Shown piece after piece: positions 7,901 through 8,991 of a stretch of DNA of 64,000 nt (its first letter is position 1; every line of letters begins with the position of its first letter). This DNA is from Escherichia coli (GTDB taxonomy: Bacteria; Pseudomonadota; Gammaproteobacteria; Enterobacterales; Enterobacteriaceae), in assembly GCF_009931435.1 (NCBI RefSeq), contig NZ_CP043414.1, one strand, 5' to 3'. Position numbers: made by a program.

Positions 7901-8991
7901 GTACCACAACCTGCACGAAACCACTGCAACAGCTGTTGAAAAGCCGGAATGTACTCTTTATTGCAAACATTTCAGGGATGAAGTGAAGATGAATTGAGAC
8001 GTAATATCCACACCAAGCCGGCGTTATCCGGTGAGGCGCAATGTTGCGGGGGCTTTATCCCTGGTGGCATTGGTTGCTGGAAAGAGAAAACCCCCGCACG
8101 TTGAGAGGTAAAACCTGACAACAGAACGGGGGCTAATCTTGAACCATCAACAATTCAAGAATAGCCGCAAAATGTTGTCATTACAACAAGGCGGCTATAT
8201 GACGCTCGCGCAGTTTGCCATGATTTTCTGGCACGACCTGGCGGCACCGTTCCTGGCGGGGATTATTACCGCAGTGATTGTCAGCTGGTGGCGTAACCGG
8301 AAGTAAGGTGAAAACGGGCGTCAGGCTGCCGTGATGGCAATATGCGCCCGAAACCGGCCGCAGGGGTAACAGCCTGCGGCCCTTTTTGTCTTTATCTCTT
8401 CTGCAAGTAAATATTGGCAACCCGAGCTGGAAGCATCATCCAGAGCACTCATGAAACGACTGTAACAACTGTTGAAAAACCGGAATGCACTCTTCATTGC
8501 AAACATTTCAGGGATGAAGTGAAGATGAATTGAGACGTAGTATCCACACCAAGCCGGAGTTATCCGGTGAGGCGCAATGTTGCGGGGGCTCTATCCCTGG
8601 TGGCATTGGTTGCTGGAAAGAGAAAACCCCCGCACGTTGAGAGGTACAACCTGACAACAGAACGGGGGCTAATCTTGAAACCAGACACTTCAAGAATAGC
8701 CGCAAAATGTTGTAATTACAACAAGGCGGCTATATGACGCTCGCGCAGTTTGCCATGACTTTCTGGCACGACCTGGCAGCACCGATCCTGGCGGGAATTA
8801 TTACCGCAGCGATTGTCAGCTGGTGGCGTAACCGGAAGTAAGGTGAAAACGGGCGTCAGGCTGCCGTGATGGCAATATGCGCCCGAAACCGGCCGCAGGG
8901 GTAACAGCCTGCGGCCTTTTTTGTATCCGGCCCCATGAAAAAAGCCTTAACGCAGAACGCTAAGGCTTTAGTTTTCAGGCAAAAAAGATTA

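What the first reader, a model, noticed from the sequence alone, without database searches (positions are those of the whole stretch)
7908..8925. Two tandem LDR type I toxin-antitoxin units (ldr/rdl) with diverged toxin peptides
Two roughly 480 bp direct repeats with a 536 bp period each encode a 35 aa Ldr toxin peptide plus the antisense Rdl RNA region and a terminator. K-12 carries three copies at this locus as far as I recall, so copy number differs here. The two peptides differ at three residues (I9T, F18I, V26A), and the repeats differ upstream, so the copies are not simply identical duplicates.
Basis: partly seen in the sequence, partly recalled or inferred. Interest (0 to 1): 0.45.

Follow-up and report, generated by a model that had tools for sequence, protein, structure and literature searches.

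The report
Two ordinary ldr/rdl toxin-antitoxin repeats
The region holds two intact copies of the well-known E. coli LDR repeat, each encoding a small membrane toxin and its antisense RNA; having two copies rather than K-12's three is a common natural variant, so the finding is correct but ordinary.

Summary
The chaA-kdsA intergenic region (window 7794-8988) contains two tandem LDR units with a 536/535 bp period, differing at 31 of 487 aligned positions. Each unit has an intact 35-aa Ldr ORF (Pfam PF13940, E 3e-23 and 1e-25). Each has a full-length Rdl antisense RNA (Rfam RF01813, 83.6 and 90.1 bits against a gathering score of 50). Each ends in a GC-rich terminator. The peptides differ exactly as claimed (I9T, F18I, V26A). 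K-12 has three units at the same locus.

Copy number is not remarkable. Among 5,426 complete E. coli genomes, roughly 25% carry one unit here, about 30% carry two (including O157:H7) and about 45% carry three or more.

Assembly collapse cannot be tested without reads but is unlikely. The window's locus is 100% identical over 6.1 kb to an independent NCBI assembly and differs by one base from a metagenome contig. All 24 contigs read that carry the rare F18 allele have two Ldr genes between chaA and kdsA.

Both peptides are already in NCBI as Ldr-family proteins. The only mildly interesting extra is that the two units carry different discrete types of Rdl 5' tail. That tail is the most variable segment inside LDR units.

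Verdict: already known, low interest.

The parts
7908..8389 (+). LDR unit 1 (chaA-proximal; positional counterpart of the K-12 ldrC unit; Rdl-tail type 'gamma')
   Evidence: Direct-repeat family. Alignment with unit 2 and the K-12 units. The 5' flank matches first-position units of other genomes.
8002..8007 (+). Inferred -10 box of the ldr-1 promoter (TAATAT). The transcript start is inferred near 8014, which would give an mRNA of about 375 nt.
   Evidence: Sequence conservation with K-12 LDR-D begins at this hexamer (TAGAAT in LDR-D, TAGTAT in ldrA/B/C). This is inference, not mapped here; the consensus scan found no 9-of-12 promoter.
8085..8150 (-). Rdl-1 antisense RNA (66 nt), complementary to the ldr-1 5' UTR; its 5' end lies 49 nt upstream of the ldr-1 ATG.
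   Evidence: Rfam RF01813 rdlD, 83.6 bits (gathering score 50), model positions 1-66 of 66. Predicted fold -27.3 kcal/mol with a terminator hairpin and U-run.
8199..8306 (+). ldr-1 toxin ORF, 35 aa, MTLAQFAMIFWHDLAAPFLAGIITAVIVSWWRNRK (rare F18 allele)
   Evidence: ORF. Pfam PF13940, E 2.8e-23, residues 1-35 of 35. The exact sequence occurs on 25 contigs and is annotated as an Ldr family protein.
8356..8387 (+). Intrinsic terminator of ldr-1 mRNA
   Evidence: 9-bp stem with 8 GC pairs, followed by a T-run.
8390..8443 (.). Inter-unit spacer
   Evidence: Matches the two K-12 inter-unit spacers at 68/70 and 66/70. Found in 4064 of 5426 genomes, 1-6 times each.
8444..8925 (+). LDR unit 2 (kdsA-proximal; 3' part and flank match the K-12 ldrA unit, Rdl tail matches K-12 ldrB/C; type 'alpha')
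8538..8543 (+). Inferred -10 box of the ldr-2 promoter (TAGTAT)
   Evidence: Alignment with the K-12 units including LDR-D; inference.
8621..8686 (-). Rdl-2 antisense RNA (66 nt)
   Evidence: Rfam RF01813, 90.1 bits, model positions 1-66 of 66. Its 5' end is 48 nt upstream of the ldr ATG, the same offset as annotated rdlA/ldrA in K-12.
8734..8841 (+). ldr-2 toxin ORF, 35 aa, MTLAQFAMTFWHDLAAPILAGIITAAIVSWWRNRK
   Evidence: ORF. Pfam PF13940, E 1.1e-25. The exact sequence occurs on at least 1000 contigs. It is identical to the second Ldr of NZ_AP027764.1, WP_000170965.1.
8891..8922 (+). Intrinsic terminator of ldr-2 mRNA
6606..7793 (+). chaA (flanking gene; the annotated start lies downstream of this maximal ORF)
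8989..9843 (-). kdsA (flanking gene)

Best explanation
These are two independent, intact ldr/rdl type I toxin-antitoxin modules (LDR repeats) in the chaA-kdsA intergenic region of an E. coli-lineage chromosome.

Each unit is expected to produce a stable ldr mRNA of about 375 nt. This mRNA has a long 5' UTR and encodes a 35-aa single-pass inner-membrane peptide with a PxxxG transmembrane helix and a WWRNRK tail. When over-produced, the peptide damages the membrane, blocks ATP synthesis and condenses the nucleoid.

From the opposite strand each unit makes a 66-nt Rdl RNA. Rdl is perfectly complementary to the 5' UTR (about -48 to -113 from the ATG), not to the ribosome-binding site. Rdl pairs with the mRNA, the duplex is cut by RNase III, and translation of the toxin is prevented. 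The proposed route is blocking of a leader ORF or structure to which ldr translation is coupled, as in hok/sok.

The two-unit array is one of several common copy-number states of this locus, produced by unequal crossing-over and gene conversion between units. The units are mosaic relative to those of other strains.

Shown here: the sequence anatomy, family membership, synteny and population frequency. Inferred from the literature on K-12 LdrA/LdrD/RdlD: expression, toxicity and the mode of repression.
For: - Repeat structure.
- Ldr_toxin Pfam hits at full length.
- Two full-length rdlD Rfam hits above the gathering score.
- Terminators for both ldr and Rdl.
- Same flanking genes and same Rdl-to-ATG offset as the annotated K-12 ldrA/B/C-rdlA/B/C.
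- RefSeq annotates the same two ORFs as 'type I toxin-antitoxin system toxin Ldr family protein' in near-identical loci.
- The PxxxG motif, conserved Trp and charged tail are retained in both peptides: the sequence, compared with the family signature in PMC7472228.
- Mechanism from the literature: PMC4147584, PMC8167048, PMC12643268, and PMC7373196, which reports an RNase III-cut ldrD-rdlD duplex in vivo.
- Copy-number census.
- Mosaic relationships between units.
Against: No expression or toxicity data exist for this strain. The F18 allele of unit 1 is rare (25 contigs) and untested. The consensus scan found no strong sigma-70 promoter; the promoters are inferred only from conservation with K-12 units. 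The leader-ORF (ldrX) coupling model is itself unproven according to PMC4147584. The upstream ORF layout also differs between the two units.
Confidence: 0.93

Rival explanations
1. The true locus has three or more LDR units, as in K-12, and the assembly collapsed one of them.
For: K-12 has three units, and about 45% of complete E. coli genomes have three or more. Tandem repeats of about 535 bp can collapse in short-read assemblies.
Against: The window locus is 100% identical over 6107 bp to NCBI assembly GCA_009899175.1, and differs by 1 base from an independent ENA metagenome contig. All 24 contigs read that carry the F18 allele have the same gene neighbourhood, with two Ldr genes between chaA and kdsA, on contigs ranging from 71 kb to over 1 Mb. 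The two units differ at 31 positions and are bounded by unique flanks, so they are resolvable. The nearest complete RefSeq genomes (99.2%) and about 30% of all complete genomes also have two units. Reads themselves were not available.
Confidence: 0.04
2. One unit (most likely unit 1, with the rare F18/V26 peptide and an altered Rdl 5' end) is a decaying, non-functional copy.
For: F18 is a rare allele (25 contigs, against at least 1000 for I18). Unit 1's Rdl scores lower, at 83.6 against 90.1 bits. The long GTG upstream ORF is closed by a TAA in unit 1.
Against: In unit 1 the ORF, Shine-Dalgarno sequence, Rdl stem-loops and both terminators are all intact. F18 sits at an X position of the PxxxG motif and is a hydrophobic-for-hydrophobic change. 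The 'gamma' Rdl tail and the V26 allele are widespread: they occur in O157:H7 and as the sole unit in one-copy genomes. The same TAA is present in K-12 ldrB and ldrC.
Confidence: 0.07

Closest known systems
E. coli K-12 LDR-A/B/C (ldrA-rdlA, ldrB-rdlB, ldrC-rdlC) between kdsA and chaA (Kawano et al. 2002, as cited in PMC4147584)
   Same: Same locus, same flanking genes and same unit architecture: promoter region, 5' UTR, Rdl on the opposite strand 48 nt upstream of the ATG, 35-aa ORF, terminator. Units differ from K-12 units at 12-25 of 487 positions. The inter-unit spacer is 94-97% identical.
   Different: Two units instead of three. Unit 1's peptide has F18 and V26, which are not in K-12. 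Unit 1's Rdl 5' tail ('gamma', UUGAUGGUUCAAG) is absent from K-12. Unit 2 combines the LdrB-type T9 with the LdrA/C-type S29.
E. coli K-12 LDR-D (ldrD-rdlD), the experimentally characterised member
   Same: Same architecture, alignable from the -10 box to the terminator. It belongs to the same Pfam and Rfam families.
   Different: A different locus (bcsG-yhjV) and a single copy. Its peptide is only about 60% identical, and the sequence upstream of the -10 box is unrelated.
hok/sok (plasmid R1 and chromosomal homologues)
   Same: A type I TA with a long toxin 5' UTR and an antisense RNA that targets the leader rather than the toxin's ribosome-binding site. Leader-ORF coupling is proposed for both. 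Both ldr 5' UTRs give weak sub-threshold Rfam 'sok' hits.
   Different: An unrelated toxin family. The Rfam hits are far below the gathering score (27-30 bits against 59). Coupling through ldrX is not experimentally established.

Membership tests
LDR (long direct repeat) ldr/rdl type I toxin-antitoxin | About 0.5-kb direct-repeat unit, tandem at the chaA-kdsA locus | tested here: met
   Two units with a 536/535 bp period. They align end to end with the K-12 ldrA/B/C units. The chaA and kdsA flanks are present.
LDR (long direct repeat) ldr/rdl type I toxin-antitoxin | 35-aa hydrophobic Ldr peptide (Pfam PF13940), with a PxxxG transmembrane motif, conserved Trp and basic C-terminus | tested here: met
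   PF13940 at 82.1 and 89.9 bits (cut-off 27), residues 1-35 of 35. P17-x-x-x-G21 and WWRNRK are present in both peptides. The family signature is described in PMC7472228.
LDR (long direct repeat) ldr/rdl type I toxin-antitoxin | Cis-encoded Rdl antisense RNA of about 60-66 nt opposite the 5' UTR (Rfam RF01813) | tested here: met
   83.6 and 90.1 bits against a gathering score of 50, full model length, on the minus strand. The offset to the ATG (48-49 nt) equals that of K-12 rdlA/ldrA.
LDR (long direct repeat) ldr/rdl type I toxin-antitoxin | Rho-independent terminators ending the ldr mRNA and Rdl | tested here: met
   Six terminator-like sites found against 1.7 expected, at the expected positions in both units.
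LDR (long direct repeat) ldr/rdl type I toxin-antitoxin | Both RNAs are expressed, with a stable ldr mRNA and an unstable Rdl | not testable with these tools
   Only sequence is available. Promoters are inferred from conservation, and no strong consensus promoter was found.
LDR (long direct repeat) ldr/rdl type I toxin-antitoxin | The peptide is toxic on over-expression, and the cognate Rdl represses it | not testable with these tools
   Shown in the literature for K-12 LdrD/RdlD and LdrA. Not shown for these alleles.

The most novel reading that the evidence does not exclude
The roughly 10-nt block at the Rdl 5' end could be a specificity determinant. It comes in three discrete types (alpha, beta, gamma) and is the most variable stretch inside LDR units. 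It differs between the two units here. On this reading each Rdl would preferentially silence its own ldr mRNA, so tandem copies would be regulated independently, as shown for Sib/Ibs. The shuffling of types between array positions would then reflect selection to keep the types within one genome different.
Probability: 0.2. Interest if true: 0.35.

Novelty: already known. Interest (0 to 1): 0.08.

Why it matters
It matters little as a discovery. The ldr/rdl LDR repeats have been known since 1999-2002, both peptides are already in NCBI as Ldr-family proteins, and two copies at this locus is a common E. coli polymorphism.

The result is still useful for annotation. Automated pipelines annotate the two small ORFs but usually not the Rdl RNAs. 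It also records that this locus varies from one unit to as many as seven (up to six inter-unit spacers per genome), with mosaic units, so it should not be read as an assembly error by default.

Tried and rejected
- Assembly collapse could not be tested on reads. Indirect evidence from independent identical assemblies and from population frequency argues against it.
- I tried to locate the published 'ldrX' leader ORF. The primary sources (Kawano 2012; Fozo 2008) are not held. The reviews only say that ldrX overlaps the ldr translation initiation region.
- Several upstream ORFs exist, and their layout differs between units and from ldrD. I therefore did not assign ldrX.
- The sigma-70 consensus scan found no promoters. 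Promoter positions are inferred from conservation only.
- A literature search for Rdl copy discrimination found nothing relevant.
- The mSystems 2024 paper on type I TA conservation does not treat ldr.
- The sub-threshold Rfam 'sok' and 'rnk_leader' hits were not taken as evidence of membership.
- My first census reading counted two rows (H84, H88) as having three or more copies. One search showed H84 is a two-copy locus with an IS200C insertion, and I corrected the estimate; H88, which has the same match pattern, was reclassified by analogy and not checked.

Full report
**What is in the sequence**

Window 7794-8988 is the intergenic region between a chaA ORF (6606..7793, +) and kdsA (8989..9843, -).

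The repeat finder reports two direct-repeat families. One is 7846-8143 vs 8382-8679 (spacing 536). The other is 8150-8389 vs 8685-8924 (spacing 535, 97% identical). The 1-nt change in register falls near 8143-8150.

Real homology starts near 7908/8444. The preceding 62 nt match at only 34/62. Homology ends at the terminator T-runs. This gives two units of about 482 bp separated by a 54-nt spacer (8390-8443). In a MAFFT alignment the two units differ at 31 of 487 columns.

**The parts of each unit**

*Toxin ORFs.*
- Unit 1: 8199..8306, MTLAQFAMIFWHDLAAPFLAGIITAVIVSWWRNRK.
- Unit 2: 8734..8841, MTLAQFAMTFWHDLAAPILAGIITAAIVSWWRNRK.
- They differ at I9T, F18I and V26A, plus two synonymous changes.
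- Both match Pfam PF13940 (Ldr_toxin) over residues 1-35 of 35, with E 2.8e-23 and 1.1e-25.

*Antisense RNAs.*
- On the minus strand, Rfam RF01813 (rdlD antitoxin) matches at full model length.
- The hits are 8085-8150 (83.6 bits) and 8621-8686 (90.1 bits), against a gathering score of 50.
- The Rdl 5' end lies 48-49 nt upstream of the ldr ATG, the same offset as annotated rdlA/ldrA in K-12.

*Terminators.* Terminator-like hairpins with T-runs end both ldr transcripts (8356-8381 and 8891-8916) and both Rdl RNAs. Six sites were found against 1.7 expected.

*Promoters.*
- They are only inferred.
- Conservation with the unlinked K-12 LDR-D begins exactly at a -10-like hexamer (TAATAT 8002-8007; TAGTAT 8538-8543).
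- The consensus scan found no strong sigma-70 site.

**Comparison with K-12 and other genomes**

In MG1655 the same interval carries ldrC-rdlC, ldrB-rdlB and ldrA-rdlA, reading from chaA to kdsA. Its intergenic length is 1729 bp against 1195 bp here, a difference of one unit.

By its 5' flank, window unit 1 is the positional counterpart of the ldrC unit. By its 3' flank, unit 2 corresponds to the ldrA unit.

The units are mosaic. Unit 2's 3' UTR, Rdl body and flank match last-position units such as K-12 ldrA. Its Rdl 5' tail matches K-12 ldrB/ldrC and the first unit of O157:H7. This is the pattern expected from unequal crossing-over and gene conversion between tandem repeats. Fozo et al. 2010 likewise describe lineage-specific duplications and losses of ldr loci.

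**How unusual is two copies?**

The evidence comes from four searches.
- Megablast of window 7000-9900 against 5,426 complete E. coli genomes found the locus in 5,425 of them. In 2,834 a single place covers at least 80% of the query. That class contains both one-unit and two-unit loci.
- An evenly spaced sample of 60 records showed 17 colinear two-unit loci (including four O157:H7-type records) and 14 one-unit loci. A further 28 had about 68% coverage, and one lacked the locus.
- H84, one of two rows in the 68% class whose match covers query 1-1944, proved to be a two-unit locus with an IS200C insertion. I reclassified H88, which has the same match pattern, as two-unit by analogy; it was not checked.
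- The 61-nt inter-unit spacer occurs in 4,064 genomes, 1 to 6 times each, with 6,471 chromosomal places in total.

Combining these gives about 25% of genomes with one unit, about 30% with two, and about 45% with three or more (mostly three). The copy-number difference from K-12 is real but is an ordinary polymorphism.

**Could the assembly have collapsed a unit?**

Reads were not available, so this cannot be tested directly. Several lines of indirect evidence argue against collapse.
- The exact F18 peptide occurs on 25 contigs. The 24 contigs read all share the same neighbourhood, with two Ldr genes between chaA and kdsA. Their sizes range from 71 kb to over 1 Mb.
- The window is 100% identical over 6,107 bp to GCA_009899175.1 and differs by one base from an ENA metagenome contig. 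A third relative has 3 differences in the intergenic region and the same structure.
- The nearest complete RefSeq genomes (99.2% identical) are also two-unit.
- The two units are 6% divergent and sit between unique flanks.

I put collapse at about 4%.

**How it most likely works**

This section is inferred from the literature on K-12 homologues.
- LdrA/LdrD are 35-aa single-pass inner-membrane peptides. Over-production inhibits ATP synthesis, arrests growth or kills the cell, and condenses the nucleoid (PMC12643268; PMC7472228; PMC4147584).
- Rdl is an antisense RNA of about 60 nt that overlaps the long 5' UTR rather than the ribosome-binding site. It represses translation.
- A hok/sok-like coupling to a leader ORF (ldrX) has been proposed but not confirmed.
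- ldrD-rdlD duplexes form in vivo and are cut by RNase III (PMC7373196).

Both window peptides keep the family signature: P17xxxG21, the conserved Trp and the basic tail. F18 is a hydrophobic substitution at an X position of PxxxG. I therefore expect both units to be functional, and I put the chance that one unit is decayed at about 7%.

**Extras beyond the finding**

*Rdl 5' tail.*
- In 19 distinct units from 11 genomes, the block at the Rdl 5' end is the most variable 10-column stretch inside the unit. Its pi is 0.28 against a mean of 0.059.
- The block comes in three discrete types. Alpha is in window unit 2 and K-12 ldrB/C. Beta is in K-12 ldrA. Gamma is in window unit 1, the second O157:H7 unit, and the sole unit of one-copy genomes.
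- The order of types differs between genomes. It is gamma-alpha here, alpha-gamma in O157:H7 and alpha-alpha-beta in K-12.
- Predicted tail duplexes are 10-13 kcal/mol weaker for non-cognate pairs. However, 58 of the 66 nt remain complementary, so cross-talk is still likely.
- This could mark partial cognate specificity, as is known for Sib/Ibs (my recollection of that literature, not checked here). That remains a hypothesis.

*Upstream ORFs.*
- The layout differs between the two units.
- Unit 2 has a 56-codon GTG ORF (8567..8737) that ends in an ATGA overlap with the ldr start.
- In unit 1 that frame is closed by a TAA (8109-8111). Instead TTG 8139 and ATG 8172 are in frame with ldr.
- A 25-codon ORF (MLRGLYPWWHWLLERENPRTLRG-T) is conserved in both units and in K-12 ldrD.
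- I could not obtain the primary description of ldrX, so I did not assign it.

**Verdict**

The feature is a known family at its known locus, in a common copy-number state, and its peptides are already catalogued (WP_000170965.1 for unit 2; NCBI Ldr-family entries for the F18 allele). Novelty: already known. Interest: low.

Noticed in passing
window 8143-8150 (unit 1) and 8678-8686 (unit 2): The Rdl 5' tail / transcript-start block is the most variable stretch inside LDR units. It exists as three discrete types whose order in the array differs between genomes. Non-cognate tail duplexes are predicted to be 10-13 kcal/mol weaker.
   Followed up: partly
window 8031-8201 and 8567-8737 (+): The upstream ORF layout differs between units. 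Unit 2 has a 56-codon GTG ORF ending in an ATGA overlap with the ldr start. In unit 1 that frame is closed by a TAA, and TTG 8139 and ATG 8172 are instead in frame with ldr. A 25-codon ORF (8041..8118; 8577..8654) is conserved, including in K-12 ldrD. Which of these, if any, is the proposed ldrX could not be established.
   Followed up: partly
window 8048-8201 and 8584-8736 (+): The Rfam 'sok' model RF01794 gives sub-threshold, full-length hits over both ldr 5' UTRs, ending at the ldr ATG (27 and 29.7 bits; gathering score 59; E 2e-3 and 3.5e-4). This fits the literature's hok/sok analogy but is not evidence of membership.
   Followed up: no
window 8714: A lineage-specific C-to-A change (GTCATT to GTAATT) puts a TAA two codons after the in-frame upstream ATG of unit 2. 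It lies in the spacer of the inferred Rdl-2 promoter. A close relative (L004) and all K-12 units have C.
   Followed up: no
window 54370-54448 (-): C0299 sRNA (Rfam RF00119, 111.9 bits). It is the only other Rfam gathering-level hit in the window. No tRNAs were found.
   Followed up: no
related loci: L009 5048-5506; hits H24-H30, H55: In some E. coli genomes an IS200C sits between the last LDR unit and kdsA. In one genome an IS150 interrupts the locus.
   Followed up: no
E. coli genome collection: The LDR inter-unit spacer also matched 12 places on records typed as plasmids. This was not examined.
   Followed up: no
whole window (tested on 7000-9900 and 30000-50000): The window is only 98-99% identical to its best matches among 5,426 complete RefSeq E. 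coli genomes, and 95-99% to most. The source is therefore a less-sampled E. coli lineage. Its closest relatives differ by IS66-family insertions in the 30-50 kb part.
   Followed up: no
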